Virus record (IMG/VR): IMGVR_UViG_3300047159_000049
DNA length: 64,000 bases
Direction: 5' to 3' (one strand)
Origin: a virus
Taxonomy: Duplodnaviria > Heunggongvirae > Uroviricota > Caudoviricetes
The notes beneath the pieces are model-generated. The model ran no database searches and had not been told where the DNA came from. It saw only the letters and a program-made list of their open reading frames with translations. Of the stretch, positions 7,986 through 61,245 are shown one piece after another (within the stretch, counting starts at the first letter, position 1; each line of letters opens with the position of its first letter). A program made the position numbers and the translations under genes.

Positions 7986-8014
7986 TCTCGAACAATCGAT
8001 TATACGATTGTTTC

Positions 8015-16593: not shown

Positions 16594-16622
16594 GCGGCGT
16601 CCGGCGTCCCGAACAATTGATT

Positions 16623-28770: not shown

Positions 28771-28775
28771 TCGTT

Positions 28776-29456: not shown

Positions 29457-29470
29457 ATAAATAAATCCGG
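29448..29470 (+). repeat. AT-motif copy GGGAAATAAATAAATAAATCCGG
   Basis: Spans the ClpP stop, then a GC hairpin. Confidence 0.6.
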
Positions 29471-37000: not shown

Positions 37001-39830
37001 CACGGTTTCGCGCCTCACGGCTTTCTGGAACAGAGTAGGCTATCCGGTGAAAACGACGGTTTCCGAAAAAGTGGAATATGTCAGAGTCGATAAGAACCCG
37101 TTCGCCATTGTGTCGGAATACATCGATGGCGATGCTTTGACGAAGAAGCTTTCCAATCGTTGTTTCAATGCTTCGAACGAATTCAAAGAAGGATTCATAT
37201 CGGGTTTGAGAGCCAGCGATGGGTCGAAGGAGAAAAAGAGGATATACACTTCATCGGAAACGATGAAAAACGATGTGATGAAACTTTTGGCATCCATGGG
37301 GCACAAAGCTTTGTCAAACTACGTCGACAACAGAGAAAGTCGCTTATCCGACAAGCCGAATTACAGAATTGACTTCCCGGATCGCGAGCGCTATGGCGAG
37401 CTTTTCGATCAAGACGATTCCTACAATTATTACAAGATAGTGTCGATAGAGAAAACCAATGACGCATCAAGTGATTTTCTTTACTGCTTGGAGATAGACA
37501 GCGACGATCATGTTTTCGCTTTGGCATCAGGTCTCATGACTCACAACTGTCGTCTTCGCCTCGATCTTCGCGAACTGCGCAAGCGCAACGGCGGGTTCTT
37601 CGGAGCCGGAGAATCCACTGGCAGTATCGGCGTCGTCACCATCAACATGCCGCGCATCGGCTACCTCGCCGCCGACAAAGACGACTTCTACGCCCGGCTC
37701 GACCACATGATGGACATCGCCGCCCGCTCGCTTGAGATCAAGCGCAAAACAATCACCGACCTCTATAACCGTGGCCTCTATCCGTACACCAAGCGCTATC
37801 TGGGCGAAACCGCGTTCAAGAACCATTTCTCGACGATCGGCCTCGTCGGCATGAACGAAGCCTGTCTCAACGCCAAATGGCTGAAAGACGACCTCACGCA
37901 CAAGGACGCCCAGGACTTCACCGTCGAGGTCCTCAATCACATGCGCAACCGGCTATCTGACTACCAAGTCCAGTATCCATCGACACTTTTCAACCTTGAA
38001 GCGACGCCGGCGGAGTCAACGTGCGTTTCAGGAGACACCAATGTTTGGACTGATAAAGGCCGTATGACCGTCAACGATATCATCGCCGATAAAAATAAAA
38101 ATATCGGCATCATGTCATTCAACGCCGAAACCAACTCAGTCGAGTTCAAGAAGCTCGTCGACTGCTGGAAGACGAAGAAAGACGCCGAAGTGATGAAGAT
38201 CACCTTCTCCAATGGCGACAGCGTCAAAGTCACGCCTAACCATAAGATGGCGAAGCGGTTCGTCACCGGATGCGGTCCCAGTCGCAAATGCTGGATCGAT
38301 TACGTCGAAGCCGGATCCTTAAAAGTCGGAGACAGATTATTCGCGTGCCATGTTTATACTAAGAATTCTAAAGCATATGGAGAAACGTATCGCAATGTCG
38401 AATGCGTACTTGGCAAAAATAAAGGATCTTTCCCGATGCATCGTCTTCTAGCTGAATATTACTATGGCAAGATCCCAGACGGATTCGTAGTCCATCATAA
38501 GGATTTCGACAAGACCAACAACGCCAAAGACAACCTTGAGATAATGTCGGATGCCGATCACCGCCGGCTGCATGAGCATGACGAAGGCCGTAATTTTGTA
38601 AGATGCGTAGACGGCTCCGCCAACCCATTCTTCGGCAAGCATCACACCGAAAAATCAAAAGAGCTTATTTCCGAGACGAAGAGGGAAACCAAAGACGAAT
38701 GGTATCCTAAGTTCCTTGAGAACATGGCATCCGAAGACACCCGCAGAAAGATGTCTGAAGGGAATAAGAAAAAGAGCTTCGAGCAGTATTCGAGATACAT
38801 GCCGGAATGCTCAACCGAAGCCATAATCGCTAAATGGAAGGAAAACAAGAGCATCGGCGAAATCGCCAAAGAGCTCGGAGAGCCTTACACTTACTCGCTC
38901 GTCAAATCGCGCCTGAAGCATGCCGGCCTGCTTCCAAACCATCAGATCGTCAAGATCGAATACCTCACCGAGAGGGAAGACGTCTACGATCTCGAAGTCG
39001 AAGGCAACCACAACTTCTTCATCAGCGGCGGCGTTGACGACGCGGTGCTGGTGCACAACTGCTTCCGCCTCGCCAAGCACGACAAGGAAATGTATCCCGA
39101 CATCATCACCGCCGGCAAATCCGGCGAGACGCCTTACTACACCAACAGCTCGCACCTCCCCGTCGGATACACCGACGACATGTTCAGCGCGCTTGACGTC
39201 GAGGACCGCTTCCAGACCCTATACACCTCCGGTACCGTCTTCCACGCCTTCCTCGGGCAGCGTCTGCCCGACTGGCATTCGTGCATGAGGCTCGTCCGCA
39301 AGATCGCGGAGAACTACAAGCTGCCGTACTTCACCATGTCGCCGACCTATTCCATCTGCCCCGACCACGGCTACATCGTCGGCGAGAAATGGAAGTGCCC
39401 GATCTGCGGCAAGGAGACCGAGGTCTACAGCCGCATCACCGGATACTACCGCCCGCTCAAGAACTGGAACGCCGGCAAGATGCAGGAGTTCCATGACCGC
39501 AAGGAATACGATTCCTCGAAAGAGGAAGTCCATGACGGATGCAACGCCTGCTCCCTGGAAAATAAAAATATTTCCGCCGAGGCGCCCAAAGTCGATCATC
39601 TGATGCTGTTCACCAACCCGACGTGCCCGAACTGCAAGATGGCGAAGATGCTGCTCGACAAAGCCGGGATCAAGTACGACAACATCGACGCGTCGACGCA
39701 TCTCGACCAGGTCAACGCGTTCGGCATCACCGCCGCCCCGACGATGATCGTCCCGGATGGGGCCTCGTTCGACGTCTACAGAAACGCCTCGGAGATCGCC
39801 GGATGGATAAAATCGCGCTCCAACGCGTGA
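34031..39830 (+). CDS. nrdD: anaerobic ribonucleotide reductase NrdD with ATP-cone, four inteins and a C-terminal glutaredoxin/NrdH-like domain; apparent +1 frameshift near 35.6 kb
   Basis: Extein strings NQMVNFLG / LQNEWSGAQAFSSFDTYLAPFV / NTPSRWG / QAPFTNVTLDW / RSM|CRLRLDLRELRKR / FNLEATPAEST|CFRLAKHD. Zn ribbon CPDHG...CPICG. Glycyl-radical RITGYYRP. CPNC redoxin domain at the C-terminus. Confidence 0.9.
34195..34215 (+). repeat. AT-motif copy GGGAAAATAAAAAATAATTCC
   Basis: Intragenic in the NrdD ATP-cone, encodes GKIKNNS. Confidence 0.7.
34676..35155 (+). mobile_element. intein 1 in NrdD (mini-intein, about 160 aa)
   Basis: Cys start after NFLG. Internal TVHN. Ends ...ICARN followed by Cys and the extein LQNEWSGAQAF. 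Confidence 0.6.
35309..36233 (+). mobile_element. intein 2 in NrdD (LAGLIDADG type; C-terminal boundary uncertain; contains the frameshift)
   Basis: Starts RWG|CVDTDTEV. LAAMVYTDGS motif. Extein resumes at CQAPFTNVTLDW. Confidence 0.55.
35574..35647 (+). other. frame change (+1) between two NrdD ORFs inside intein 2
   Basis: Two ORFs overlap here in different frames. The second frame carries the LAGLIDADG motif. A T5 run lies at about 35604-35608. Confidence 0.6.
36576..37547 (+). mobile_element. intein 3 in NrdD (double LAGLIDADG)
   Basis: RSM|CPLTSDTEILV ... LGFAIGAYAGDGS ... FISGLRASDGS ... LMTHN|CRLRLD. Confidence 0.8.
38022..39059 (+). mobile_element. intein 4 in NrdD (HNH endonuclease type)
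   Basis: AEST|CVSGDTNVW ... HHKDFDKTNNAKDNLEIMSDADHRRLH ... VLVHN|CFRLAKHD. Confidence 0.8.
38088..38108 (+). repeat. AT-motif weak variant
   Basis: Inside intein 4, encodes DKNKNIG. Confidence 0.3.
39557..39575 (+). repeat. AT-motif copy, palindromic GGAAAATAAAAATATTTCC
   Basis: At the junction of the NrdD core and the redoxin domain, encodes ENKNIS. Confidence 0.7.
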
Positions 39831-40958: not shown

Positions 40959-41016
40959 ATTGCCGTAATCCTCTTGTAAATACTGATAATCAATTGTTGC
41001 TGGATTGGCGATTCTT

Positions 41017-42653: not shown

Positions 42654-44442
42654 ATGAATAGCGACATTGATTCTTACGCAATCAAAATGCAAATCAAGAA
42701 TCCTTCAGACTTTCCTAAGATCGACGGACTTGGGGCATACGCATCGGCCCTAATGAGCATGAACGGGATCACGGCTGATTCCTTTTTCTCGTCCCTACCA
42801 GACACCAAGATGCATTACGAGCTAGAAGAATGGATGAAGATCATGGAGCCTATGCCTGGCCAGCATGATTTCTCGGACATGGTCCTCAAGAACAAATCGC
42901 GCCATTTCTGCGTGATCGGGGATTACGACTGCGACGGAATCATGGCGACCGCCATCGTGGCCAAATCACTGAGATTGGCCGGAATCAAATGCGATTTCAT
43001 AACCCCGAACAGATTCGTCGACGGATACGGCATGTCCGTAAAGCACGTCACCGAAGCCCTTTCCAAAGGGGCCAACGCGATCATCACCGTGGACAATGGA
43101 ATAACCTGCAAAGACGAGATCGCCTTCGCCAAGGAGCATGACGCGATAGCGATCGTAACCGACCACCATATCTCGCAAGGACCGATCCCGGCCGATCTCG
43201 TCTGCGACCCTTTCTGCGACGGATCAAAATTCACCGAGATCAGCGGAGCTACCGTGGCGTTCAAGCTATGCCGCCAGCTTCTCCTTGACAAAGGATTCGC
43301 TGATTCGCAGCTGAAAGACATGGCCGCGATGGCAGCCATAACCGTGATGTCGGACTCGATGCAGATGATCGGCGAGAACAGAATCCTCGTCAAAGCCGCC
43401 CTGGATTACCTCAACTCAGAAGAGAACGATCCGAAGACGTTCTCGAACAGACTGGCCAGGATGATGGGATACTACCGCTTCCCGTCAGACAGCGGGATCC
43501 TTCGCAGATACACCGTGTCTGGTCTGCAGTTCTCGCTGATCCCGGTCGTCAATGCGGTCAACCGCATCCTCGGAGACCCGACCAAGCTGGTGTCAGACAT
43601 CGTCAAGATACTCGACGGAAACGAGCCATCCGAGGATCTCGGATCAAAATACGTCGAGATCAACAACCTCCGCAAGCAATGCAAGAAGGATCTGCTGAAG
43701 CAATACCATCCGAACGGAGACAAGATCGCGATCGTCGTCCTCCCAGGATCCGACACGATGAACTATTCCGGGATGGCCGGCCTCGTCGCGTCGCAGATAG
43801 CCGAGGACGAAGGCAAGCCCGCCCTCGTCGGAATCGACGACGGCCATACGGGGAAAAATAAAATTTTCCGGACGAAGCATCAACGGATTCCCTCTATACG
43901 ATTTCCTGATGGATCTGTCCAAAGACCATCCTGAGCTCAACATGGAATTCGGAGGCCACAGCGAAGCGCTTGGCGGATCCGTGCCCAAGCAAAAAGTCCC
44001 GGCTTTCAGAACGGCCGCAATCAGGGCAATGCTTTCCGTCAATCTCCCGAAATCCGAGGAAACGGTCGTGTCCATGTCCACCGGATCGGAAGCCATGAAA
44101 GCCTATCTCGACTTCGCCCCGTATGGCAAGGGATTCAAATTCCCTGAGCTGTACACCGAAGGCAATATCGTCAGCGGAGGATTCGACCGCAGATCGAGGA
44201 CGTTCACGCTCGATTCGGCGCCTAGCCTCAAAATCAAATGCTACGACAAGGAGCTGTACAAATACATCTCGGAGATCTATTACAACAATCTCTGCTCCAA
44301 AGTCAAGATCGATGCGGTGATCTCCATCTCAGACGGGGATGACGGCATCCCATCTCCCGACCTCCGCAAGATCTGCAACATCGACAAAAACGTCAAATTG
44401 GCTGCGGATCTGCGGGAATATCAGTACAACTCTAGAAAATAG
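42654..44442 (+). CDS. RecJ-like DHH/DHHA1 single-strand exonuclease, apparently frameshifted near 43855
   Basis: VIGDYDCDGIMATAI, TVDNGI, VTDHHI motifs. After the frame change come SGRSINGFPLYDFL and FGGHSEALGG (DHHA1). Confidence 0.7.
43850..43869 (+). repeat. AT-motif copy GGGGAAAAATAAAATTTTCC
   Basis: Coincides with the RecJ frameshift site. Confidence 0.65.
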
Positions 44443-47077: not shown

Positions 47078-47106
47078 GAGAGACGCGAACCGGAACAAAT
47101 GATTAT

Positions 47107-47643: not shown

Positions 47644-47664
47644 ATTCCTGTAGGAGTGATAATC

Positions 47665-49164
47665 ATGCGAAAGACATGGCCAGACAAAGACGAGATGATC
47701 CGATGGATAACTGAAAACTCAGCCACCAGGACAGACGTGATGGCGCATTACGGATTCTCAAAGCAATCCATGCGCACCATCAGCGCCAAATACGGGCTTA
47801 AGGAATATCTCAAACCCATCTCCGAAGACGAGAGGATCGCCAGAAGCAAGGAAGCTGTCAAAGCCAAGTACGGCGTCGACAACGTCTTTAGGCTGAAATC
47901 GATCCAGGACAAATCCGCCAAAACCAACGTCGAGAGATACGGCTTCAGCTCCCCCAACAAGAACAAGGAAGTCGTCGCTAAGCGCAAGAAGACCAATCTA
48001 GTCAGATATGGCTATGCCATGCCGATGATGAACAAAGTCATAAAGGCCAAAGCCAACAAGACGAACCTGGAGAAGTACGGATCGGCATGCGTCCTGGCGT
48101 CTCCGGAAATAAAAAATAAAATCTCCAAGACGAGCGACGCCAAATACGGAACGCCTGTCATTCAGTCGAGAGATCTCACAGACATCGGCAAATCAGCCAC
48201 GCAATCAAAGGAAGCGATGTCCGCTTTCATAGAATCGCAATCAGACCGCACCAGCAAGCATCTCATGGACGAGCTCGGATACGAGTCAAGAACCGGATTC
48301 TTCATAATGATCCACAAGTACGGCTTGTTCGATCTGCTTGACTGCGACAAGGAAACGTCTTTCGCCGAGAAGGAAATAGCCGATCTGATAGAGTCGCTCG
48401 GATTCAAAGTCGATCGCAACAGACGCGATCTTCTTGGCGATGGGCGCGAGATAGACATCTACGTCCCAGACAGGCATCTTGGGATCGAATACAACGGGAC
48501 GTATTGGCATTCCGATCTCAAGAAGGATGACAAAGAGTATCATCAGCGCAAAGTCCTCGATGCCGAGAAGAACGGAATCCATCTGATTCACATCTACGAA
48601 TTCCAATGGGAGAATCCCGTCCTTAAGCCGATAATCATCTCAGTCGTAAAACTGTTCTTAGGCCTTAACTTCAATCGCGTATATGCGAGAGACTGCGTCA
48701 TCAAGACGATCCCGGAAAGCGTGAGCAGGCCATTCTGCGAGAGCAACCACATGCAAGGATATGTCTATGCCAAAATCACTTATGGGCTGTTCTCCAAATC
48801 AGGAGAGCTTCTTCAGCTGATGAGCTTCGGAAAGCCAAGATACAGCCATCTGGCCCAATGGGAGATCATCAGAGGATGCCCAGGATCGAATAACCTCGTC
48901 GTCGGAGGCGTGTCCAGGCTGTTCTCGCATTTCGTCAAAGACAACAGCCCGGAGTCCGTGCTGTCATACTGCGACCTCAATATGTTCGACGGCAAAGGAT
49001 ACAAAGCCATCGGAATGAATCTCGTCGGCGTGACAAAGCCAAACAAATGGGTGATCCTCCCAGACGGAAGGGTCATCGACAGAGACCCGTCAAAGTACGA
49101 AGAGTACAAAGGCTATCCGTCCATATACGGAGCTGGAAGCGCCGTGTACCTGTGGAAAAAATAA
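47665..49164 (+). CDS. homing-endonuclease-like protein: NUMOD-like K..TN..KYG repeats plus DUF559/Vsr-like PD-(D/E)xK domain
   Basis: Repeats ...KTNVERYG / KTNLVRYG / KTNLEKYG / SDAKYG. IDIYVPDRHLGIEYNGTYWH...GIHLIHIYE. Confidence 0.45.
   Translation: MRKTWPDKDEMIRWITENSATRTDVMAHYGFSKQSMRTISAKYGLKEYLKPISEDERIARSKEAVKAKYGVDNVFRLKSIQDKSAKTNVERYGFSSPNKNKEVVAKRKKTNLVRYGYAMPMMNKVIKAKANKTNLEKYGSACVLASPEIKNKISKTSDAKYGTPVIQSRDLTDIGKSATQSKEAMSAFIESQSDRTSKHLMDELGYESRTGFFIMIHKYGLFDLLDCDKETSFAEKEIADLIESLGFKVDRNRRDLLGDGREIDIYVPDRHLGIEYNGTYWHSDLKKDDKEYHQRKVLDAEKNGIHLIHIYEFQWENPVLKPIIISVVKLFLGLNFNRVYARDCVIKTIPESVSRPFCESNHMQGYVYAKITYGLFSKSGELLQLMSFGKPRYSHLAQWEIIRGCPGSNNLVVGGVSRLFSHFVKDNSPESVLSYCDLNMFDGKGYKAIGMNLVGVTKPNKWVILPDGRVIDRDPSKYEEYKGYPSIYGAGSAVYLWKK
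48105..48126 (+). repeat. AT-motif copy
   Basis: Intragenic, encodes EIKNKIS. Confidence 0.55.
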
Positions 49165-49172
49165 AATAAAGG
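49154..49172 (+). repeat. AT-motif copy
   Basis: Spans a stop codon and precedes the bidirectional terminator. Confidence 0.55.
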
Positions 49173-49197
49173 CCGGCGATTGAGCGCCGGTCTTTTT
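49171..49197. terminator. bidirectional terminator between convergent genes
   Basis: GGCCGGCG-ATTGA-GCGCCGGTC plus TTTTT. A-run on the other side. Confidence 0.6.
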
Positions 49198-49201
49198 AGT
49201 G

Positions 49202-52200
49202 TCAGTAGTCCCAGATGGCTTTTATCATCCGCCCTAGCTCAACGAGTACTTTGTTCGAGTAGAGGTATGAGAAGAAGTCAGATGTCATGCGTCCTAATAT
49301 TCCTGTAGGAGTGCATACTGCATTGCATGGAAGCTCGCTATGATATTCCGACGTAGGAGATTCTCCTGCGGCAAACACCTTAGACACGACTCCCTTGAGA
49401 GCGCTCGTGTAAGTGATCTTGTCTCCAGGGCCGATCGGGTCGAGTATCTCAACGTAGTATTCGATGAGAACGCCTTGATACTGGCTTCCGTTGACCTTGG
49501 ACTTTCCTGAGCTGTCGGTTCCCATCTGGTTGGTCGTGTCTATATGCACGCTTCCGCCATGAGGGACGTTGTATTTGGTGAGGAACTCAGATCTGTCAAG
49601 CTGGATGCCTTTGTATTCCGATATGAGCTTTCTGAGGGTCGGGCTGAGCTCAGCCAAAGGCATATTGTAATACACCTTCACAGAAACGACGCTTCCGGAG
49701 TATCTAGAAAGGATCTTATCGCGTGATATCTCGTTCACGGCATTGGCGCCCAAGACATCTTTCATGTTGTTCATGTATTCGGCAGTCGATGGATCGAGAT
49801 AGCTCTTGGAGTATTCCAGAAGGGTATCCTCAGATTCAACCTTGTCTCCGGCATGAACCGTGCTGTAGATCGTCGCATTGGGGCCAAGCGCCACCGATGT
49901 CATCATCGTGAAGTAAGACGCGCATTCGTTTGACAGAGTCTCATCGACCATCGTCGAGTCCTCAAACGCGCCATCCGATGCGGCAAGCGCAACCTTGGCA
50001 AGCGTTCCAGGCATATAATCGATGTCCTTTCCCTTTCCGCTGAAATAAGACGGGTTGTAGGCAATGACGTCGCCTTTATTGAATCTCTCGCCTTGGCTGT
50101 ATTTGATGAGGAAGTGCTCTTTGATGAAGAATCCGCTGTTCGAGTTCTTAACGAGAACGTCGCCGAGATCGATCGCGTCGTTCGTCCCATCGTCATATGC
50201 CAGAATGGCGATGTGCTTATTGGTGTCGATTGTCTTGATTACTCCGTTCTTCTTGGCTTTGAAGCAGAAGTCATCGGATATCATGAACGCCATCGTCTTA
50301 TTTATTCCTGATCCGACAAGCTGCTTATGGGCTTTGACGACGGGCATCGTGTGCTTAGTCTGCGAAATCTGCATCGCTGAGCGAGGCGCATCCGACTGAG
50401 CCGACACGAACGATGCCAGCATCTCGGCAGGGCTTAGGATGTTCGTAGCCGACAGACTGCTCTTATCGACGTCTGGGATGTATCCGCGGATCGTCGAGAT
50501 CTTAGGATCATATGAAATCGATCGGCTCATTCCGGCCGTTCCGCCGAACTGAGTGTCGTTTCCTGACAGGAATCCGATCATGCTAGGATCATAAGCGCGC
50601 ATCTTCATGGTGTACGCCTTGTCCAGGTTGACGCCGTTGAATCCCTTTGCCGTGCAGTTTGAAAGGCTTTCAAGCTCAAGCACCGGGTTCAATACGCTTG
50701 CCGGATTGACGTTTACCTGGTTGGTCAGGGCCTTGATGAGGGCGTTCTTAGGAAGATCAAGCCCTCCTCTGTGCCCATTAAGGCGGCCGTTCTGATAGTT
50801 CTTGTATGCGTCGGCAAGGACTTTGTACAGAACAGCGTATATCTCTTCGTTTCCTCTGATGCGGTAGTTTCTTGCGTCGTTTAGCGATCGGCAGGTATTG
50901 GTCGTCAGAAGCGTGTTGGCGAATAAGAGCATCCCGACGATATCCGTAGGCTGCTTAAGATCTTTCTGAACGTCGTAGGTAATAGGATCGACCATCGCCG
51001 ACAGATGAAGCTTGATGGTGTTTCTGGCATACGAGTTGTATCCAAGGACATTGACGAAGAAATTGACATACGGATCCTCAGTGTCAAAGTCTCTGAAGTC
51101 GTATTGGTCGGTCTCCATCAAGCGAAGGACGTTAAGAAGCATCGTGTTCTTGAGATTGTCCAGGAAATAAAAATATTTATCCCTGAAACGGATCTCGACG
51201 TAATTGGAAAGAAGCGTTCTGTCGCGCTTGTCTGAAAGCGTGTATTTGACTCCGTATCTTCTCAAAACGCTGGTGATTCCTTCCATGAATCCGCACAGAG
51301 AGAAGATCGGATAGAACTGCTCGATCATCTTGGCTCTCGAATAGACGAAGCTCTTTCCGATAGACGGGATATCCGCATTCTGCAGCCCCAATGCAGCCAG
51401 AACGAATGCCTGGATGCAATCGGCAGCTTTGTTGTCAGACGCGATAGATCCTCCGTCTTTAGTCGGAATGGCCAGATAGACAGCTCCGTCAGGCTTGATG
51501 TGAATGACGTTGGATGAGTTCTTCTCGATCGCTATAGGGGTGTCCATCGAATCGTCTTTGAAGAATCCGTCTGGGAAGTCCATCGCGGATATCTTGCTCA
51601 TGATGCGCTGACGATCGAGGTCGATATCGTATCTCGGGGCGTCTATCGAAGAGATGCTAGACGCTAGCTCTTCATATTCGAAATCGCTGACGTATCTGTC
51701 GTTATGGACAGAATTGTCTCCCCAAAGGACAGTCCATCCCTTGGCAGAAGGCTCGGCGGTTTTGATCATCTTCAGAAGACGGACGTTTCTGCGCGAAACC
51801 TTCTCATTGGTGCGTTCAACCGTGATCTTGCTGTATGATGTCGAGATCTCGACGACGTTTGGCTTGGTCTTGACGATAGGAAGACGGAGAAGCTGCTTCT
51901 CGATGAACATCTTGTTTCCGTTGATGAAGATGAATCTGCCATCGATCACCTCAGGGATGTCGAGCGTGAATCCAAGCGACGATCCGTCGTCAGCTTTGTA
52001 ATGAGCCGTAAGGGTCATCTTCTTATTGAAGTCATCGCTCGAGTCAACGATGTTGATTCTGTCCATCGCGATCGGAAGGAACTGCGAGTTTGAGAAATGG
52101 GTGAGGATGCTCATCAGGTCTTTCTTGGCCTGCTTGGTGTTATAGTCTTCGTCAAGCGCCATCAATGAGCTATGCCTAACGCGGCTGTCGAAGTTGGCGA

Positions 52201-53539
52201 CATCGACGTCTATTTCCTTGTCATCGAGGAGAGACTCGGCATCGACGGCTATAGGAGAAGCCTTGCTTTCATCATCGTCTTTAGCGGCATATTTCGCAGC
52301 CGCCGCGGATTTCAGAGCCGACAGAACCGATGGCTTTACAGCGGTTCCGGCAGTTTGCTTCGATTTGTCTTCCGGCTCTTCTTTATCGGATGCAGACGAT
52401 TTTTCGAAATCATCTATGACTTTGGCCTCTTTCTCAAGGCCCTTGGCAAGCTGATTGAGCTTTTGGCTGTTGCTCTTCTTGGTCTCGACGTACTTAATGG
52501 CAGCCGCTTTCACATCGGGATCCGCTTCGATCGTTGTCTTTAGATCGTCATAGGACTTTCCGGCATTCTCTTTCTTGGAAAGATATCCGTCGATCTTCTT
52601 ATCGACGACAGCCGCGATGTCTCCTTCGTCTTTGGTGGCGGCGTCAAATGTCTCAGGAGCTCTGATCTTAAGTGACTTAGAGACTGACGTGAATACGAAA
52701 TTTTTTATTTTTTCCTTCGCTTCGTCGCTCTTGTCGGAGTCATCAGCCTCATCAGATCCATCGGAATCGACGTCATCTCCTTCTAGGGCCTCTCCCTTAT
52801 TCGCGTTATTGAGACGCGATATCTTAAGGAGATAGTCGTTGATCGATTTCTCAAGAGTCGGATCTGACGGATCCATGACCACGACAGCCTCGTTGTTAGG
52901 ATTATAGAAGATGATCCTGTCGAACATCTTATAGACGGACATATCGGCAAGGCCTTTTCTGAGCGTAAGAAGGAATAATGACATAGGGGTCACGTCTTCA
53001 ACGCTTGTGTCAAACAATCCCATTTTGGCGACTGATCCGAGTTTGTCAGAATAGTCGCAAATAGGGAAAATCAAATAATTCTTCTGATATCCTACTGAGG
53101 AAACAGCTTCAGGAAGGAACTCTTCCAGGAAGTCCTTCATCGCGATATACCTTGCAAATCCCTGCTTGTTTTCACGAAGAGCAAGGGTTTCTTTGAAATC
53201 AGGAATCATATCGTACACCAGATTTTTCTCGGCATACGATGTGACAAATGGCTTTCCAATTTTTAATCTACCGGAGCTTTTGTCTCTGAGCGAGGCATAA
53301 ACGGCAGCTTGATCCTCGCGAACGATCTTTCTGTTTAAAGGGCGGACCACACGAGGCGTGTACATGCAGTAAAGCTGCTGAGGCCTAAACAGCATATGAG
53401 TCATCACCGAAGCTATGTCGTCATAAGAATCCGTGGCCAGAACCACAAGATTTCCGTACATCTTTCTCTCTGTGTCGAAATTGATCGTGCGCCCTAGAAG
53501 GATACGATCCAACTTCATCTTACTCGGTGATACGAACAT
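49202..53539 (-). CDS. giant divergent RNA polymerase beta-subunit-like protein (1445 aa)
   Basis: RAYDPSMIGFLSGNDTQFGGTAGMSRSIS resembles the beta R(D)VHP..YGR.CP.ETPEG.N.GL.NSLS region. GDKITYTSALKGVVSKVF resembles GDK...RHGNKGVVS. Confidence 0.45.
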   Translation of the reverse strand: MFVSPSKMKLDRILLGRTINFDTERKMYGNLVVLATDSYDDIASVMTHMLFRPQQLYCMYTPRVVRPLNRKIVREDQAAVYASLRDKSSGRLKIGKPFVTSYAEKNLVYDMIPDFKETLALRENKQGFARYIAMKDFLEEFLPEAVSSVGYQKNYLIFPICDYSDKLGSVAKMGLFDTSVEDVTPMSLFLLTLRKGLADMSVYKMFDRIIFYNPNNEAVVVMDPSDPTLEKSINDYLLKISRLNNANKGEALEGDDVDSDGSDEADDSDKSDEAKEKIKNFVFTSVSKSLKIRAPETFDAATKDEGDIAAVVDKKIDGYLSKKENAGKSYDDLKTTIEADPDVKAAAIKYVETKKSNSQKLNQLAKGLEKEAKVIDDFEKSSASDKEEPEDKSKQTAGTAVKPSVLSALKSAAAAKYAAKDDDESKASPIAVDAESLLDDKEIDVDVANFDSRVRHSSLMALDEDYNTKQAKKDLMSILTHFSNSQFLPIAMDRINIVDSSDDFNKKMTLTAHYKADDGSSLGFTLDIPEVIDGRFIFINGNKMFIEKQLLRLPIVKTKPNVVEISTSYSKITVERTNEKVSRRNVRLLKMIKTAEPSAKGWTVLWGDNSVHNDRYVSDFEYEELASSISSIDAPRYDIDLDRQRIMSKISAMDFPDGFFKDDSMDTPIAIEKNSSNVIHIKPDGAVYLAIPTKDGGSIASDNKAADCIQAFVLAALGLQNADIPSIGKSFVYSRAKMIEQFYPIFSLCGFMEGITSVLRRYGVKYTLSDKRDRTLLSNYVEIRFRDKYFYFLDNLKNTMLLNVLRLMETDQYDFRDFDTEDPYVNFFVNVLGYNSYARNTIKLHLSAMVDPITYDVQKDLKQPTDIVGMLLFANTLLTTNTCRSLNDARNYRIRGNEEIYAVLYKVLADAYKNYQNGRLNGHRGGLDLPKNALIKALTNQVNVNPASVLNPVLELESLSNCTAKGFNGVNLDKAYTMKMRAYDPSMIGFLSGNDTQFGGTAGMSRSISYDPKISTIRGYIPDVDKSSLSATNILSPAEMLASFVSAQSDAPRSAMQISQTKHTMPVVKAHKQLVGSGINKTMAFMISDDFCFKAKKNGVIKTIDTNKHIAILAYDDGTNDAIDLGDVLVKNSNSGFFIKEHFLIKYSQGERFNKGDVIAYNPSYFSGKGKDIDYMPGTLAKVALAASDGAFEDSTMVDETLSNECASYFTMMTSVALGPNATIYSTVHAGDKVESEDTLLEYSKSYLDPSTAEYMNNMKDVLGANAVNEISRDKILSRYSGSVVSVKVYYNMPLAELSPTLRKLISEYKGIQLDRSEFLTKYNVPHGGSVHIDTTNQMGTDSSGKSKVNGSQYQGVLIEYYVEILDPIGPGDKITYTSALKGVVSKVFAAGESPTSEYHSELPCNAVCTPTGILGRMTSDFFSYLYSNKVLVELGRMIKAIWDY
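51163..51183 (+). repeat. AT-motif copy GGAAATAAAAATATTTATCCC
   Basis: Intragenic in the - strand RNAP-like gene. Confidence 0.6.
52697..52715 (-). repeat. AT-motif copy
   Basis: Intragenic in the - strand RNAP-like gene, encodes KEKIKNF. Confidence 0.55.
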
Positions 53540-53598
53540 TATCTTGATGCCTCAAATTAGTCTGCAATAATCTATTGTTCGAGGCCCCTTTGCCAGCA

Positions 53599-53622
53599 GG
53601 GGAAAATAAAAAAAAGATCCCC
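53599..53622 (+). repeat. AT-motif copy GGGGAAAATAAAAAAAAGATCCCC
   Basis: About 60 nt upstream (T-run orientation in - sense) of the RNAP-like gene start. Confidence 0.65.
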
Positions 53623-54025
53623 ATGCCGCACGAATGCAGCTCACGACCGGGGATTCAGCATAGGATACAGCTTCTGGCTCGTTGTTATGCAGTTGTCGTA
53701 AGCAAAGCGGTTTGATACGGACTGATTCAGAGTTCGGCCATACCCGTTAGATCTCTGATCTCATTGTGCGCATGATCAGGCATGCTACAAATCCTATGCT
53801 AATTTGACAACTTAGCGCAGCCACTGGCGTGAATCACGCAGTTGGACTATTTGTGCAGCATGCAAGCTACCTTCGTGTATAGCGCATGTTTTAACGGCCG
53901 CCGTATGCCAGAAGTCTTAGGTTCACGGCCGGCAAGTCAGCCCGCTAGAAATCAAACCCTAGCCAAGCAATCCCTGCAATAAGACTTTACCATACGGCTT
54001 CCGTCTAGTCAAATGCAAGATAGCG

Positions 54026-54051
54026 GATATATGATCTTGTTGAAAGAAAGG
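54026..54051 (+). promoter_or_regulatory. GATATATGAT-family element copy 5
   Basis: GATATATGATCTTGTTGAAAGAAAGGG, about 50 nt before the start at 54102. Confidence 0.45.
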
Positions 54052-54101
54052 GCACTGATCTAATCCGTGCTTTGCCTTTTTTCAGAAAGGAGTAAATAAA
54101 A

Positions 54102-54762: not shown

Positions 54763-55975
54763 CATTATCCAACGATGCGGATCACCGAAAGCATCTTTCG
54801 GCTACTGTTTAGACTGCTGTTTTTATGGACTTGCGATAGGCTCGCATTCTCTGAATCCCGCTTGCGGATATCTTGCTTAGGTCGTCTTCGACTGGCGTAA
54901 GATATCCAGCAAGCTGTAGATTCAGATCGTTTGCGAGCGTCGCACCGCGCTGACTGGCTTACATGGCACCGGTGATCTTCATCTCAGAAGTGCAGGCACT
55001 TCTGAAGATGAGTTCATCCGGTGCATCCGCCAAGCAGATCTGCTAGAGCTCGTGCGCAGCGGGGATCCAGGCATGGATGCCTGGATCACCGCTGCCATGT
55101 AGCTCTTGCATCTCTGCTTCACCACAGCGCTAAGTCCATAGGCTCTTTGAACTGAGATCCTGATCATGAGCTTCAGACCGTTAAGTCACATGCTGTGGCT
55201 AAACGGTTGAATTCATGATCAGGATTCATTTCTAATTATTAAAGGCGCATCGTCTAGAAATAATAAGGCATAGTTTTGCGCAGGATTCCTGCGATTGCGC
55301 GATATGATTCTCAAACATGACGCTTTCCCAAATCCAGAAGCTTTCGGCTTGAACCGGCGTTTTGCGCACGGAGCGAACGCCGATTCAAACACAACAGCCT
55401 CTGGACTGGGACGCATCTGTCTTTCAATTATCGTATGCCTTTTGCACAAGCATGGAAAATACCGGGGCATCCTCGGTTGTACTATAAGCTATCGCTTAAA
55501 GCCTTACGCTATCTGATGACGACCATGCGATCCGGATCTTTGACGTCGGGCACAGACGCCTCGTTAAATATCCTGATCCCCAGGCGTCAACAGATAAGCT
55601 TCAGACCAAATAGCGATATCCCGTCCGGCCCGCGAAGAACTCCCCGCTCTACAGACATAGCCAAGCAACTATTTCTGTTTCGTGGAGGAGTTCACACGCG
55701 GGCCCGATCGGGATACGCTGTCATGTGAAAGCATGCTTGAGATACACAATTAAGTCTGTGTCGTAGTAAATCGCTGAGGCTCTCAGCAGTTCAAATGCCT
55801 GAAGCGCATGTTCGCTTCTTCCCTCAGGCGCCTCGCCTGGGACTTGCTTTTGGAACTCTCTCAACACGGAATATTCAAGATTTCCAAACTTGAGAACGGC
55901 GTGCAAGTCCCCGCAGGCGCCTCAGGTCAGAGTTTCGATATCGTATCTCGTACGGCACTAAAAAAGCCAGACAGT
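54763..55975 (+). other. 1.2-kb ORF-poor, hairpin-rich region closed by an intrinsic terminator (candidate structured ncRNA locus)
   Basis: No ORF over 100 codons. A 15-bp perfect palindrome at 54981-55013. A palindrome at 55066-55086. A 13-bp inverted repeat pair at 55155-55226. Confidence 0.4.
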
Positions 55976-57098: not shown

Positions 57099-57416
57099 TT
57101 ACTTAGCAACGGATGGCTTCTTGGCAGCCCTTGCGGCCATGATGGCTTTGAGCTTCGCCTTGATCGGATTGTCATCATCTGAGCTTTCGTTGAGAATGCC
57201 TTGATCGGCATATGGCTTTATTCCCACGTTGACGCAGCTCTCGGCGATGTAGTGCTCGGTGTCTCCGCCGAAGCGATATTGGAATTTGCCGTCGTAATAT
57301 CCGCACTCATATGAGATTCCCTCATTGATGAGATATTCTTCCGGGGTCCATCTTTCCTGGTCGAACCCGAGATCTTTTAGAACGGCGTATGCCTGGTTTT
57401 CATTTAGTACGATCAT
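57099..57416 (-). CDS. hypothetical protein
   Basis: ATG at 57416 downstream of a promoter, long leader and terminator arrangement. Confidence 0.45.
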   Translation of the reverse strand: MIVLNENQAYAVLKDLGFDQERWTPEEYLINEGISYECGYYDGKFQYRFGGDTEHYIAESCVNVGIKPYADQGILNESSDDDNPIKAKLKAIMAARAAKKPSVAK

Positions 57417-57438
57417 AATCAGTTGTTCCCGCCTTAGC

Positions 57439-58713: not shown

Positions 58714-61245
58714 TCACTTCGAATGTGAATATTTTTGTTTTTCCGGAATCCTTGAGAACAGATTATCCATAGTGAAGTACACGACAGGCATCGCCAGAAC
58801 GCTGATCAAAATCATCAGCCAATCCCCGCTGGATAATGCGCTAAGCGTTCCTCCGAGATCGAATATCTTTGAGAACGCGTCATAGTACGCGCCATCTATT
58901 TTTATAACCCATAAATGCATTACGCCATCGGATGCGATTTTGAAAAGGCTGGTAGAGCATCCGCCAAACGCGCTGAGAGGAAGGAACATCGAGTATATCA
59001 CGGCCCCAGCCATGTTGCCGATGAACACTCCGGACCTATATCCGTTCATAGGAACGCTTATGCGGAACAGAACCATGAACGACGCTATCGAATAAAGCAT
59101 GCAGATCAGAGTTTTGTCTTTCATCGTCGGAGCGACTATGCTCCATGTCTGCCCGCCCGAAAGCCATATCTTTCCAACAAGAACCGACCCGGCAAGCAGC
59201 AACGCGGCCGGTATCGCTCGCACCATGATATTGCGTTTGAATGATCCTGAAAGCCTTTCCTGGCAAGGCTCGACCGACAGGAAGAACGAGGCGATCCCGA
59301 TGACGAATGTCTCCATCAAGGCAAGATTTTCCATCTCGAGAGGGAAATAATAAAATAATCCGCACAGCGTCATTATCCCAAGAAGCATCATCGAGAAAGT
59401 CTTCATCAGGAACAAAGTTGAAGTCCTGGTTATGTTGTTGACGACTCTGCGCCCTTCGCCTATAGCAGCCGGAAGATCATCGAAATTAGAATCGATGAGA
59501 ACGATGTTGGAAACCGCTTTGGCGGCATCCGCCCCTCCGGCCATGGCGACCGAGCAATCCGCTGTCTTCAGAGATATGACGTCATTGACCCCGTCTCCGG
59601 CATACGCCACTTTATGGCCTTGCTTCTGAAGAGCCTTGATGATCTTAGCCTTCTGCTCCGGGCTAACGCGCCCAAACACATTGAAATCCGCCGCCATCTG
59701 AGGGATATCCTCATCTCGGATCCCCTCCATAGAAACCGCCTTGTCCCAATCTGGGACTCCGGCTTCTTTGGCGATCTGCGACACGGTTGATGGATTGTCG
59801 CCAGAGATGATCTTGACGCTGACGGAATTGTCTTTGAACCATTTCATCGTGCTGATGACCGCTGGCCTGACGCCATCCCTAAGCACTATGAGAGCCAGCG
59901 GATCGATGTCAGCCGATCTGTCCTCTCCTTGCGGCTGCAGGCTTCCATGGCGCCTTGCGAACAAGACGACCCGAAGCCCTCTGGAAGCCAGCTTCGCGTA
60001 TTCTGAAAGTATGATAGAATCCCCGGTGATATATTCCGGCGCTCCCAAAACGTAAATGAATCCGTCAGGCATCCCGGCAGAAGACGTCTTCCTGTCGCTG
60101 GAGAACTCAAGCACTTCCTGAGCCGTCATCGACCCTACGGATCCGAACTGAGCTATCAGAGCGGCTGACGTCGCGTTGCTCGTCTTGAATGAGCCGATGA
60201 AAGATGACAGAAGATCGACGAGCTGATTGTCTTTGACCTTTCGGCTGAGGCTGATTATGGAATCAACCTTCATATGCCCGTCCGTAAGGGTTCCCGTCTT
60301 GTCGAACGCGACGGTGTCTACCCTGGCCAGCATCTCGATGGAATACATGTCCTGAACGAGCGCTTTCTTCGACGCTAATTTGATTATTCCGACGGCAAGC
60401 GCTATGGACGTAAGGAGAATCATCCCTGAAGGAATCATGCCGACCATCATGGTCCCTGTCGGGATTATGACGTCGGACTCAAACGAAGTCGTGTACGCCG
60501 CCGGCATCCCGTTGGTAAGCCAAAGCTTAAGCCCCAGGGCGAATCCGAGCGGGACGATGATGCACGCCAGAACCTTGAGCAGCCACATGATCGTGGTCAT
60601 CAGCTCAGACTTGGCTCTCTTGAATTCCTTGGCTTTGTTTTGGATGCCGGACGCGTAAGTCGATTGCCCCACGGCCGTAGCCACGATGGAGCATGACCCC
60701 GAAATGATGAACGACCCGGCAAGAACCTTAGCCCCGGATTCCTTCTTTATGGCGTCGGCCTCTCCGGTGAGAAGCGACTCATTGGCTTCGGCGCTTCCGT
60801 CGATGACGTCTCCGTCGACAGGGATCTGATCGCCAGATCTCAGAATGACGACGTCTCCCAAAACGATGTCGTCGGAATTTATTTTTATTTCCTTCCCGTC
60901 TCTGCGAACAGATGCCTTAGATGAGCACACTATCGACAGCTTCTCTACGGCTTTCTTTGACCTGATTTCCTGGATGATTCCGATTGCCGTATTGAGGACA
61001 AGATTGATGCAGAATCCGTATTTCGACCAGTCATCCACCCCGAACACGAGGAAGCATATGGCTATGCCGGCAAGCAACGCGTTGAAGAATGTGAACACGC
61101 TGTCCCTGATGATATCCCAATAGGACTTCGAGCATTTCTTGTTGGTGACGTTTGCCAATCCATCTGACTTAAGCTGAGCGGCTTTCTCAGACGTAAGCCC
61201 CTGCGAACGGCTGTCGACGATCTTTGCATTTTGGTGTGTTTTCAT
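58714..61245 (-). CDS. P-type cation-transporting ATPase (P2-like)
   Basis: DKTGTLT, TGEADAI, GDGVNDV motifs. N-terminal GLTSEKAAQLKSDG. Multiple TM segments. Confidence 0.85.
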   Translation of the reverse strand: MKTHQNAKIVDSRSQGLTSEKAAQLKSDGLANVTNKKCSKSYWDIIRDSVFTFFNALLAGIAICFLVFGVDDWSKYGFCINLVLNTAIGIIQEIRSKKAVEKLSIVCSSKASVRRDGKEIKINSDDIVLGDVVILRSGDQIPVDGDVIDGSAEANESLLTGEADAIKKESGAKVLAGSFIISGSCSIVATAVGQSTYASGIQNKAKEFKRAKSELMTTIMWLLKVLACIIVPLGFALGLKLWLTNGMPAAYTTSFESDVIIPTGTMMVGMIPSGMILLTSIALAVGIIKLASKKALVQDMYSIEMLARVDTVAFDKTGTLTDGHMKVDSIISLSRKVKDNQLVDLLSSFIGSFKTSNATSAALIAQFGSVGSMTAQEVLEFSSDRKTSSAGMPDGFIYVLGAPEYITGDSIILSEYAKLASRGLRVVLFARRHGSLQPQGEDRSADIDPLALIVLRDGVRPAVISTMKWFKDNSVSVKIISGDNPSTVSQIAKEAGVPDWDKAVSMEGIRDEDIPQMAADFNVFGRVSPEQKAKIIKALQKQGHKVAYAGDGVNDVISLKTADCSVAMAGGADAAKAVSNIVLIDSNFDDLPAAIGEGRRVVNNITRTSTLFLMKTFSMMLLGIMTLCGLFYYFPLEMENLALMETFVIGIASFFLSVEPCQERLSGSFKRNIMVRAIPAALLLAGSVLVGKIWLSGGQTWSIVAPTMKDKTLICMLYSIASFMVLFRISVPMNGYRSGVFIGNMAGAVIYSMFLPLSAFGGCSTSLFKIASDGVMHLWVIKIDGAYYDAFSKIFDLGGTLSALSSGDWLMILISVLAMPVVYFTMDNLFSRIPEKQKYSHSK
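59342..59361 (+). repeat. AT-motif copy GGGAAATAATAAAATAATCC
   Basis: Intragenic in the P-type ATPase (encodes GLFYYFPL). Confidence 0.6.
60875..60892 (-). repeat. AT-motif copy GGAATTTATTTTTATTTCC
   Basis: Intragenic in the P-type ATPase (encodes KEIKINS). Confidence 0.6.

What the first reader, a model, noticed from the sequence alone, without database searches (positions are those of the whole stretch)
49202..53539. 1445-aa protein with degenerate RNA polymerase beta-subunit signatures
Two segments align by eye to the most conserved beta regions. They are RAYDPSMIGFLSGNDTQFGGTAGMSRSIS and GDKITYTSALKGVVSKVF. Essential residues are substituted, for example RHGN becomes TSAL. This is reminiscent of the highly divergent multisubunit RNAPs of jumbo and crAss-like phages. 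A phage-encoded RNAP would also explain the abundant non-sigma70 motifs in the window.
Basis: inference. Interest (0 to 1): 0.6.

Follow-up and report, generated by a model that had tools for sequence, protein, structure and literature searches.

The report
Jumbo-phage virion RNA polymerase beta subunit

Summary
The ORF is real: 49202-53539, minus strand, 1445 aa. Both quoted peptides are present, at aa 981-1009 and 1372-1389. PHROG 'RNA polymerase beta subunit' profiles match at E=3.5e-142. A family profile aligns to E. coli RpoB 518-1109 at 97.7 % probability. The closest cultured relatives (30-37 % identity) are AR9/PBS1 gp189 (annotated virion RNAP subunit), phiR1-37 g099 (virion structural protein) and Staphylococcus/Listeria jumbo-phage orthologs. 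It is therefore the 'N-beta' subunit of a jumbo-phage virion RNAP (vRNAP). 'RHGN to TSAL' is not decay, because every virion N-beta lacks RHGN. The two double-psi-barrel lysines (K1374, K1382), the ED pair (E1193/D1194), D1050/R1053 and R1418 are all kept. The chain stops near E. coli residue 1134, as expected for a split beta. Its first ~450 aa are a family-specific extension: a confident alpha/beta domain with no structural relative, then an acidic/Lys-rich linker. The gene has an AR9-type late-promoter element (AACA-N6-TA) 29 nt before the ATG, an SD and a terminator. Non-virion RNAP beta' genes (NADYDGD) occur on contigs from the same samples. The virion beta' partner was not found. Verdict: new member of a known kind, moderate-to-low interest.

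The parts
49202..53539 (-). Complete CDS (with stop) of the virion-RNAP N-beta-like subunit, 1445 aa
   Evidence: ORF; PHROG RNAP beta families E=3.5e-142, 2.3e-140, 4.3e-98; best cultured hits are AR9/PBS1 virion RNAP beta, phiR1-37 g099 and Staph/Listeria jumbo phages
52790..53539 (-). aa 1-250: family-specific N-terminal alpha/beta domain with no counterpart in cellular beta
52190..52789 (-). aa 251-450: acidic / Lys-Ala-Ser-rich low-complexity linker
   Evidence: Composition per 100 aa: D+E 18-22 %, K up to 19 %. Conserved only patchily in the family.
49205..52189 (-). aa 451-1445: beta-homologous core, equivalent to E. coli beta from near residue 1 to about 1134; it ends just after the double-psi beta-barrel
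   Evidence: Collinear anchors: q527-557 = bacterial beta ~132-162; q950-1420 = E. coli 518-1109. The Foldseek top 50 are all RNAP beta chains, E~1e-12, although the model is poor (pLDDT 53).
   Evidence: hhalign. Retained: R981=R548, G989=G556, T996=T563, G999=G566, G1003=G570. Family conservation.
50342..50392 (-). aa 1050-1066, DAPRSAMQISQTKHTMP = E. coli D675-P691 (DANRALMGANMQRQAVP); also the intron/homing-endonuclease hotspot of this gene family
   Evidence: D1050=D675, R1053=R678, K1062=R687, P1066=P691. Relative L104 is split at ADPPR|QAMQ by a 1.2 kb insert. AR9 exon boundary at QQKH|IPTT. The PhiPA3 intron sits at the D675 equivalent (PMC11620839).
49958..49963 (-). E1193-D1194 = E. 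coli beta E813-D814
   Evidence: conserved in 12 of 13 metagenomic homologs (P0001 has QD) and in all four cultured orthologs
   Evidence: The same K-x7-K without RHGN is seen in AR9, phiR1-37, SA1 and phiKZ-like DT01.
49283..49303 (-). aa 1413-1419, GILGRMT = E. coli GVPSRMN (R1418=R1106)
53568..53579 (-). AACAATAGATTA: AR9-type late (non-virion RNAP) promoter-like element; the predicted start is A53568, 29 nt before the ATG
   Evidence: AACANNNGATTA occurs 6 times against 0.33 expected, with 0 of 100 shuffles reaching 6. AR9 late consensus AACA-N6-TA/G and AR9 gp189 being a late gene are from PMC5312081. Function is inferred.
53550..53553 (-). GAGG Shine-Dalgarno, 10 nt before the ATG at 53539
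   Evidence: Sequence
53601..53648 (-). Imperfect hairpin followed by TTTTTTTATTTTCC (stereotyped terminator-like module) immediately upstream of the promoter-like element
   Evidence: upstream fold dG -14.0 against background -6.7 +/- 3.4
49163..49190 (-). Intrinsic terminator of the N-beta gene: CCGGCG-CTCAAT-CGCCGG, then CCTTTATTTT; starts 12 nt after the stop codon
47656..49164 (+). Neighbouring free-standing homing-endonuclease gene (convergent). It is context and not part of the enzyme. The same pairing is seen in AR9 (gp187 next to gp188).
   Evidence: phrog_3339 homing endonuclease E=4.7e-96; PF24308 DUF7487; AR9 layout

Best explanation
The gene encodes the N-beta polypeptide of a jumbo-phage virion RNA polymerase (vRNAP). 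It is the ortholog of AR9 gp189, phiR1-37 g099, SPN3US gp241 and phiKZ gp178, and it comes from an uncultured ~50 % GC phage of the AR9/PBS1/phiR1-37-like lineage. Shown here: residues ~451-1445 are homologous to bacterial beta from its N-terminus through the double-psi beta-barrel. They keep the barrel's two lysines (K1374, K1382), the E813/D814 pair, the D675/R678 equivalents and the R1106 equivalent. The chain ends ~25 residues after that Arg, so the last ~200 residues of beta must be supplied by a separate C-beta polypeptide. Residues 1-450 are an extension found only in this family. Inferred from characterised relatives (PMC7598289, PMC5694885, PMC5312081): late in infection the gene is transcribed by the phage's second, non-virion RNAP, from the AACA-N6-TA element 29 nt upstream. 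N-beta then assembles with C-beta and three beta' pieces, without alpha or omega, into a five-subunit enzyme that is incorporated into the prohead. The enzyme is ejected with the DNA and transcribes early genes independently of the host polymerase. The N-terminal extension most likely serves assembly or capsid incorporation. In 201phi2-1 the equivalent region is removed as a propeptide, while in SPN3US it is retained.
For: The ORF and both motifs are present. [quoted passage not shown] The best cultured hits are AR9/PBS1, Staph S6-like, Listeria LPJP1 and phiR1-37 at 29-37 % identity, against 22-23 % for phiKZ-like phages. The AR9 ortholog is annotated 'virion RNAP subunit' and phiR1-37 g099 'phage structural protein'. 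Orthologs are 1393-1463 aa with the beta core starting at residue 418-507. Active-site residues are conserved across 13 metagenomic and 4 cultured orthologs, and RHGN is absent in all of them. No nvRNAP beta chain from the solved AR9 or phiKZ entries is matched, although those entries are in the PDB copy. Foldseek returns RNAP beta chains only. The expression cassette is complete. nvRNAP beta'N (NADYDGD) and beta'C occur on contigs from the same three samples, with the same 50 % GC and the same late-promoter motif. AR9 gp189 is a late gene and the vRNAP has five subunits.
Against: No proteomic or transcript data exist for this phage, so virion location and timing rest on orthology and on a motif. 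The virion beta' and C-beta partners were not found in the window, in the extra 3.7 kb, or in the public-collection searches. Pfam gives no hit for the window protein. The AF2 model of the core is poor (pLDDT 53), so the barrel fold is supported by sequence profiles and local 3Di matches, not by a confident model. Linkage of the nvRNAP contigs to this genome is circumstantial, because they are different contigs.
Confidence: 0.9

Rival explanations
1. It is the beta subunit of the phage's non-virion RNAP (the enzyme made after infection), not of the virion enzyme.
For: Both enzymes derive from beta/beta' and coexist in such phages. nvRNAP beta' genes are present in the same samples.
Against: The best match in AR9 is the gene annotated as a virion RNAP subunit. 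The 1400-aa architecture with a 420-500 aa N-terminal extension is that of the virion N-beta proteins. The solved AR9 and phiKZ nvRNAP beta chains are not matched at E<=10 or by the profile at E<=1, although those entries are in the library. A late-promoter-type element precedes the gene, whereas in AR9 the nvRNAP genes carry early promoters.
Confidence: 0.04
2. It is a catalytically dead relic of beta that now serves only as an internal head or ejection (structural) protein.
For: RHGN, NMQRQ and ETPEG are altered relative to cellular beta. Pfam thresholds are not met. The long N-terminal extension and low-complexity linker look like typical internal head proteins.
Against: The same alterations occur in AR9, phiR1-37, Staph and phiKZ-like virion N-beta proteins. 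vRNAP subunit genes, including the SPN3US N-beta ortholog, are essential in SPN3US, and vRNAP transcribes the early genes in phiKZ and AR9. The residues that contact RNA and Mg are conserved in nearly all homologs over 36-70 % overall identity (K1374, K1382, E1193/D1194, R1053, R1418), with single substitutions in one or two metagenomic members.
Confidence: 0.04
3. It is a tail, baseplate or other structural protein, and the beta-like peptides are chance resemblances.
For: None was found beyond the large size and the 'structural protein' label of the phiR1-37 ortholog.
Against: Collinear, statistically significant similarity to beta extends over about 1000 residues. All top 50 structural hits are RNAP beta chains.
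Confidence: 0.005

Closest known systems
Bacillus phage AR9 / PBS1 virion RNAP N-beta (gp189; RefSeq BI022_gp188)
   Same: It is the best cultured match, at 34-38 % identity over the main aligned pieces of aa 454-1443 (49 % on one short exon piece), with weak similarity also in the N-terminal domain (E=3e-4). It has the same GDK-x7-K barrel motif without RHGN, plus ED, ADPPR and SRMT. A homing-endonuclease gene lies next to it. It is a late gene (PMC5312081), and the window gene carries the AR9 late-promoter consensus.
   Different: The AR9 gene is broken into 6 exons by introns with homing endonucleases, whereas the window gene is uninterrupted. AR9 is 29 % GC and this phage is 50 %. There is no nucleotide similarity.
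Yersinia phage phiR1-37 g099, and the Staphylococcus (S6, SA1) and Listeria LPJP1 orthologs
   Same: They are uninterrupted 1393-1418 aa proteins with the same layout: an N-terminal extension, then the beta core from residue ~418-427. Identity is 29-32 %. g099 is annotated as a phage structural protein.
   Different: Their N-terminal extensions are not detectable with the HMM of this clade's N-terminal domain. Their genomes are low-GC.
phiKZ gp178 / SPN3US gp241 / 201phi2-1 vRNAP beta (Chimalliviridae and relatives)
   Same: They have the same subunit role, size (~1460 aa, 159 kDa) and barrel motif type. SPN3US genetics show a five-subunit vRNAP that assembles before capsid incorporation. The gene is a target of intron homing endonucleases at the D675-equivalent site, the same hotspot found here in relative L104.
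   Different: Identity is only 22-23 %. In 201phi2-1 the N-terminus is removed at TFE-275, in SPN3US it is not, and the status here is unknown. Nucleus-forming biology is not implied for the AR9-like lineage.
Bacterial RNA polymerase beta (RpoB)
   Same: It is homologous from the N-terminal 'GxERVxxSQxxRSP'-type motif through fork-loop/region D, the DANR motif, the ED pair and the double-psi barrel.
   Different: The window protein lacks the last ~200 residues. It carries a 450-aa N-terminal extension. RHGN, NMQRQ and ETPEG are altered. There is no Pfam hit. No alpha, omega or sigma partners are expected (PMC7598289).

Membership tests
Jumbo-phage virion RNAP N-beta subunit (phiKZ gp178 / AR9 gp189 / SPN3US gp241 / phiR1-37 g099; PHROGs 3148, 14872, 38251) | Significant, near full-length similarity to the family's profiles and members | tested here: met
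   PHROG E=3.5e-142 (aa 228-1444), 2.3e-140, and 4.3e-98 (aa 29-973). tblastn finds 293 phage records, all jumbo phages annotated as RNAP beta.
Jumbo-phage virion RNAP N-beta subunit (phiKZ gp178 / AR9 gp189 / SPN3US gp241 / phiR1-37 g099; PHROGs 3148, 14872, 38251) | Closest to the virion paralog, not the non-virion paralog | tested here: met
   The AR9 match is annotated 'virion RNAP subunit'. There is no match to the solved nvRNAP beta chains, although 7S00 and 7OGP are in the library.
Jumbo-phage virion RNAP N-beta subunit (phiKZ gp178 / AR9 gp189 / SPN3US gp241 / phiR1-37 g099; PHROGs 3148, 14872, 38251) | Beta-homologous core with double-psi barrel B carrying the two conserved lysines, plus the ED pair and the Arg of SRM | tested here: met
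   K1374/K1382, E1193/D1194 and R1418 align to E. coli K1065/K1073, E813/D814 and R1106. They are conserved in the homologs.
Jumbo-phage virion RNAP N-beta subunit (phiKZ gp178 / AR9 gp189 / SPN3US gp241 / phiR1-37 g099; PHROGs 3148, 14872, 38251) | The polypeptide stops shortly after the barrel (split beta) | tested here: met
   The alignment reaches E. coli 1109 at query 1420, and the protein ends at 1445, about E. coli 1134 of 1342.
Jumbo-phage virion RNAP N-beta subunit (phiKZ gp178 / AR9 gp189 / SPN3US gp241 / phiR1-37 g099; PHROGs 3148, 14872, 38251) | An N-terminal extension of roughly 420-500 aa before the beta core | tested here: met
   The beta core starts at ~451 here, at 427 in SA1, 418 in phiR1-37 and 507 in DT01.
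Jumbo-phage virion RNAP N-beta subunit (phiKZ gp178 / AR9 gp189 / SPN3US gp241 / phiR1-37 g099; PHROGs 3148, 14872, 38251) | Partner genes for C-beta and three beta' pieces of the virion enzyme in the same genome | tested here: inconclusive
   None is in the window or in the 3.7 kb beyond it. The virion beta'N family was retrieved (consensus GGDYDGD), but no member could be tied to this phage. The genome is incomplete.
Jumbo-phage virion RNAP N-beta subunit (phiKZ gp178 / AR9 gp189 / SPN3US gp241 / phiR1-37 g099; PHROGs 3148, 14872, 38251) | Coexistence with a second, non-virion RNAP gene set | tested here: met
   nvRNAP beta'C (P0099; AR9 7S00_D at E=3e-78) and beta'N (LNADYDGDVLN) lie on contigs from the same JGI samples (3300059061, 3300076289, 3300056808). 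They share the 50 % GC and the AACA-N3-GATTA density. They are not on the same contig, so linkage is circumstantial.
Jumbo-phage virion RNAP N-beta subunit (phiKZ gp178 / AR9 gp189 / SPN3US gp241 / phiR1-37 g099; PHROGs 3148, 14872, 38251) | Late expression from a non-virion-RNAP promoter | tested here: inconclusive
   An AACA-N6-TA element lies 29 nt upstream of the ATG, and the motif is 18-fold over-represented. No transcript data are available.
Jumbo-phage virion RNAP N-beta subunit (phiKZ gp178 / AR9 gp189 / SPN3US gp241 / phiR1-37 g099; PHROGs 3148, 14872, 38251) | Physical presence in the virion and ejection into the host | not testable with these tools
   This is known only for the orthologs: the phiR1-37 g099 annotation and SPN3US gp241.
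Cellular RNAP beta subunit (RpoB / Rpb2) | Full-length beta meeting the Pfam Rpb2 domain thresholds, with GRHGNKG and the C-terminal clamp/anchor region | tested here: not met
   There are no Pfam hits even at E<=10. RHGN is replaced. The C-terminal ~200 residues are absent.
Jumbo-phage non-virion RNAP beta (AR9 gp105+gp089; phiKZ gp71-73+gp123) | Detectable similarity to the solved nvRNAP beta chains, and early or continuous expression | tested here: not met
   A late-type promoter element precedes the gene.
crAss-like phage gp66-type RNAP (single polypeptide with two barrels) | A second double-psi barrel with DxDGD in the same polypeptide | tested here: not met
   There is no DxDGD anywhere in the 1445 aa. 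All matches are to beta only.

The most novel reading that the evidence does not exclude
Probability: 0.3. Interest if true: 0.55.

Novelty: new member of a known kind. Interest (0 to 1): 0.3.

Why it matters
The finding identifies the window as part of an uncultured jumbo phage that carries its own injected transcription machinery. It extends the AR9/PBS1/phiR1-37-like lineage, so far known only from low-GC phages, to a 50 % GC genome. No virion RNAP has been purified or solved: the 2020 review says none had been purified, the 2026 review still describes it only by subunit composition, and no such chain was matched in the 2026 PDB copy. An intron-free, GC-balanced N-beta with 13 near-full-length metagenomic homologs is therefore a useful extra sequence for structure and expression work. 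The residue map shows which beta features the virion enzymes keep (K-x7-K, ED, DxxR, SRM) and which they all drop (RHGN, NMQRQ, ETPEG). The AR9-type AACA-N6-TA element in a distant, GC-balanced relative suggests that template-strand promoter recognition, and possibly uracil-containing DNA, may be wider than the Bacillus phages. Otherwise this is an expected gene of a known family.

Tried and rejected
(1) Pfam scan of the protein: no hit at E<=10. The family is too divergent for Pfam, and PHROGs, phmmer and hhalign were needed.

(2) Nucleotide search of 13 kb around the gene against 50,697 phage records: no match.

(3) Search for other RNAP subunits in the window: PHROG scans of 41 ORFs, plus phmmer of E. 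coli beta and beta', the Staph SA1 408-aa 'beta' protein, part of phiR1-37 g102 and DT01 beta'N against all six-frame ORFs. Only the N-beta ORF itself was found.

(4) Search for the virion beta'N of this phage. AR9 gp145 exon 1 was used as the query and returned 559 relatives. Candidates P0250 and P0254 came from other samples. No protein on contig L013 belongs to the virion beta'N family. A profile scan of the metagenome contigs returned 80 loci, none from this phage's samples and none with its GC and motifs. Walking 3.7 kb beyond the window found no RNAP-like protein.

(5) AF2 model of the beta core (aa 451-1445): poor, with pLDDT 53 and pTM 0.32. It was used only for a cautious Foldseek check.

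(7) The T-rich 14-mer as the early (vRNAP) promoter: largely rejected. Most gene-sense copies abut a stable hairpin, so they behave as terminator U-tracts. Upstream of the nvRNAP genes the AT-rich element is in the opposite orientation. The early promoter remains unidentified.

(8) tRNA and Rfam scans of the window, to explain the gene-free stretches next to the gene: nothing found.

Full report
**Observation.** The window contains one long ORF at 49202-53539 on the minus strand (1445 aa, ATG start). The start is credible. A GAGG lies 10 nt upstream, and Met1/Pro5 are invariant in 17 aligned homologs.

**Is it RNAP beta?** Pfam reports nothing. Three PHROG families annotated 'RNA polymerase beta subunit' match almost end to end, at E=3.5e-142, 2.3e-140 and 4.3e-98. 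Plain phmmer against PDB sequences finds bacterial RpoB chains at E=1.2e-8. A 17-sequence family profile raises this to 3e-13 and adds collinear anchors:
- The N-terminal 'DIP...G.F..NG....I..QL.R.P.V' motif, at about query 527-557, matches bacterial beta ~132-162.
- The fork-loop/region-D segment is matched.
- The DANR-to-ED block is matched.
- The barrel motif is matched.

hhalign of the profile against E. coli RpoB (taken) gives 97.7 % probability and E=1.6e-12 for query 950-1420 = E. coli 518-1109.

An AlphaFold model of aa 451-1445 is poor (pLDDT 53). Even so, all 50 best Foldseek hits in the PDB are RNAP beta chains, at E~1e-12 with alignments of 1050-1240 columns, and no tail or baseplate protein appears.

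**Which beta?** The best cultured relatives by tblastn are:
- Bacillus phages AR9/PBS1/Goe21, at 36-37 % identity.
- Staphylococcus S6-like and Listeria LPJP1 jumbo phages, at 31-32 %.
- Yersinia phiR1-37, at 29 %.
- phiKZ-like and Ralstonia phages, at only 22-23 %.

There is no nucleotide-level match to any phage record. The AR9 gene under the match is annotated 'virion RNAP subunit' and is joined from six exons. phiR1-37 g099 is a 1393-aa 'phage structural protein'. The Staph SA1 and phiKZ-like DT01 orthologs are 1418 and 1463 aa.

The literature adds the following:
- AR9 vRNAP consists of gp078, gp125, gp145, gp189 and gp264, all encoded by late genes (PMC5312081).
- SPN3US gp241 (159 kDa) is the beta-N head/ejection protein of an essential five-subunit vRNAP that assembles before entering the prohead (PMC5694885).
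- The vRNAP beta is split into N-beta and C-beta (PMC7598289).

The protein does not match the solved non-virion RNAP beta chains of AR9 or phiKZ, although those entries are in the library. It is therefore the virion-enzyme N-beta.

**Are essential residues lost?** Mapping through searches gives these equivalences (query = E. coli beta):

| Query | E. coli beta |
|---|---|
| R981 | R548 |
| G989 | G556 |
| T996 | T563 |
| G999 | G566 |
| G1003 | G570 |
| D1050 | D675 |
| R1053 | R678 |
| K1062 | R687 |
| P1066 | P691 |
| E1193/D1194 | E813/D814 |
| K1374 | K1065 |
| K1382 | K1073 |
| R1418 | R1106 |

The two barrel lysines are the universally conserved ones that contact the RNA backbone (figure legend in PMC7598289). 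RHGN is replaced by TSAL, but [TS]xALKG is conserved in the metagenomic homologs. AR9, phiR1-37, SA1 and DT01 all have GDK-x7-K without RHGN, together with ED and the Arg of SRM. This is a signature of the virion enzymes, which are essential and active in the studied phages, and not degeneration. The chain ends 25 residues after R1418, at about E. coli 1134 of 1342. That is the expected split point, so a separate C-beta must exist.

**The N-terminal extension.** The beta core begins near residue 451. In SA1, phiR1-37 and DT01 it begins at 427, 418 and 507, so an extension of this size is a family trait, although its sequence is clade-specific.
- Residues 1-250 fold confidently (pLDDT 86, pTM 0.87) into an alpha/beta domain.
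- An exhaustive profile search of 1.84 billion representatives finds 33 proteins. In every one the domain is at residue 1 of an N-beta or of a fragment of one.
- Residues 251-450 are acidic and Lys/Ala/Ser-rich.
- In 201phi2-1 the orthologous N-terminus is cut off at TFE-275 by the prohead protease. In SPN3US it is not.

A role in assembly or capsid incorporation is the most economical inference, but it is untested.

**Gene context and expression signals.** The window is a jumbo-phage fragment. It encodes:
- a family-B DNA polymerase;
- RNase H;
- a RecJ-like exonuclease;
- an SbcC-like protein;
- NrdD with inteins;
- a Lon-like protease with a ClpP-like protease;
- a virion protein.

The exact N-beta protein is found on 10 metagenome contigs. 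The longest is a 103.6 kb JGI contig that is 99.96 % identical to the window.

The motif AACANNNGATTA occurs 6 times against 0.33 expected. It fits the AR9 late-promoter consensus AACA-N6-TA/G. One copy, at 53579-53568, lies 29 nt before the N-beta ATG. A strong intrinsic terminator follows the stop codon.

A second motif, TTTTTTTATTTYCC, occurs 17 times against 0.05 expected. Most copies abut a stable hairpin, so it is mainly a stereotyped terminator tail.

**Partner polymerase genes.** A relative on a 316.6 kb contig has a beta'-like gene 8 kb from its N-beta. Using it as a query retrieved P0099. P0099 lies on contigs from the same JGI samples as the N-beta (3300059061 and 3300076289, later also 3300056808), next to a 484-aa protein with PF00623. 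That protein carries LNADYDGDVLN and a Zn ribbon. The contig has 50 % GC like the window, whereas the other AR9-lineage loci compared are 27-32 % GC, and it has the same late-motif density. Both proteins are orthologs of AR9's non-virion beta'N and beta'C (7S00_D at E=3e-78). The phage population therefore has the two-polymerase system. The virion beta' and C-beta of this phage were not found despite several attempts.

**Mobile-element hotspot.** Several homologs end at 'ADPPR'.
- In relative L104, the gene is split exactly between ADPPR and QAMQISQTKH (query R1053|S1054 = E. coli R678|A679). The insert is 1.2 kb and carries a Zn-ribbon/Vsr-like endonuclease ORF, and the 3' part resumes downstream.
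- AR9 has at least three interruptions between query 973 and 1150, one of them at QQKH|IPTT.
- In PhiPA3 an intron homing endonuclease sits at the D675 equivalent and nicks phiKZ gp178 (PMC11620839).

The window's allele is uninterrupted. It is flanked by a free-standing homing-endonuclease gene at 47656-49164, as in AR9.

**Verdict.** It is a new and distant member of a known family, with at most 37 % overall identity to any cultured ortholog and 68 % to the nearest metagenomic one. Interest is moderate to low. The uncharacterised N-terminal domain and the AR9-type promoter in a GC-balanced lineage are the parts worth following up.

Noticed in passing
window 7991-8002(+), 16612-16623(+), 40987-40998(-), 47094-47105(+), 53568-53579(-), 57416-57427(-); also L013 3592, 4419, 6001: AACANNNGATTA is 18-fold over-represented and fits the AR9 late-promoter consensus AACA-N6-TA. 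In three window copies and one L013 copy the predicted start nucleotide is the A of an ATG start codon, or 2 nt before it (16623, 57416, 47105/47107; L013 4430). This suggests leaderless late mRNAs.
   Followed up: partly
window, 17 sites, e.g. 8023, 15633, 16579, 41024, 42588 (+) and 53614, 57452 (-): TTTTTTTATTTYCC (at most 1 mismatch) occurs 17 times against 0.05 expected. Most gene-sense copies directly follow a stable hairpin (dG -11 to -19), so this is a stereotyped intrinsic-terminator tail. G-runs before it and C-runs after it tend to be complementary (GGGGA...TCCCC).
   Followed up: partly
L013 9960-9974 and ~17020-17034; window 29449-29465 (+): Both nvRNAP beta' genes are preceded, 25-40 nt before the ATG, by an A-rich element: GGAAATAAATAAATA or GGAAAAAAATAAATA. 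The identical 15-mer precedes window ORF 29497. This is a candidate early (virion-RNAP) promoter, but it is unproven.
   Followed up: partly
window 53615-54101 and 54763-55720: Two stretches of about 490 and 960 bp next to the N-beta gene have no called gene, no tRNA and no Rfam match. The first ends, on the minus strand, in a hairpin plus T-tract, so it may be an unannotated transcript.
   Followed up: partly
window 42654-44442 (+): The RecJ-like DHH/DHHA1 gene is one 595-aa ORF on the JGI contig. In the window it is split into two ORFs by a single extra base (1789 nt against 1788 nt). This is either a strain variant or an assembly error.
   Followed up: yes
window 34031-39830 (+): The anaerobic ribonucleotide reductase NrdD is interrupted by two inteins and an HNH endonuclease and fused to a glutaredoxin/thioredoxin-like tail. 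It is called as a single 1932-aa product on the JGI contig.
   Followed up: no
window 58714-61245 (-); L105 10516-12159: An 843-aa P-type (E1-E2) ATPase gene lies near the N-beta gene. The same neighbour is present in a 38 %-identical relative, so it is a conserved and unusual phage gene.
   Followed up: no
L104 8180-9073: The endonuclease-like ORF inside the split N-beta gene of a 30 % GC relative has three in-frame TGA codons, at positions where Trp fits the repeat pattern. This hints that the phage reads TGA as Trp (code 4).
   Followed up: partly
window 26506-29456 (+): A 754-aa Lon-like AAA+ 'ATP-dependent protease' (phrog_4871, E=2e-143) is immediately followed by a 229-aa ClpP-like 'head maturation protease' homolog.
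   Followed up: no
L105 7141-7143 and 8147-8158: The N-beta gene of this relative carries frameshifts inside the QTKH motif and near its 3' end. It may be a pseudogene or the result of assembly errors.
   Followed up: partly
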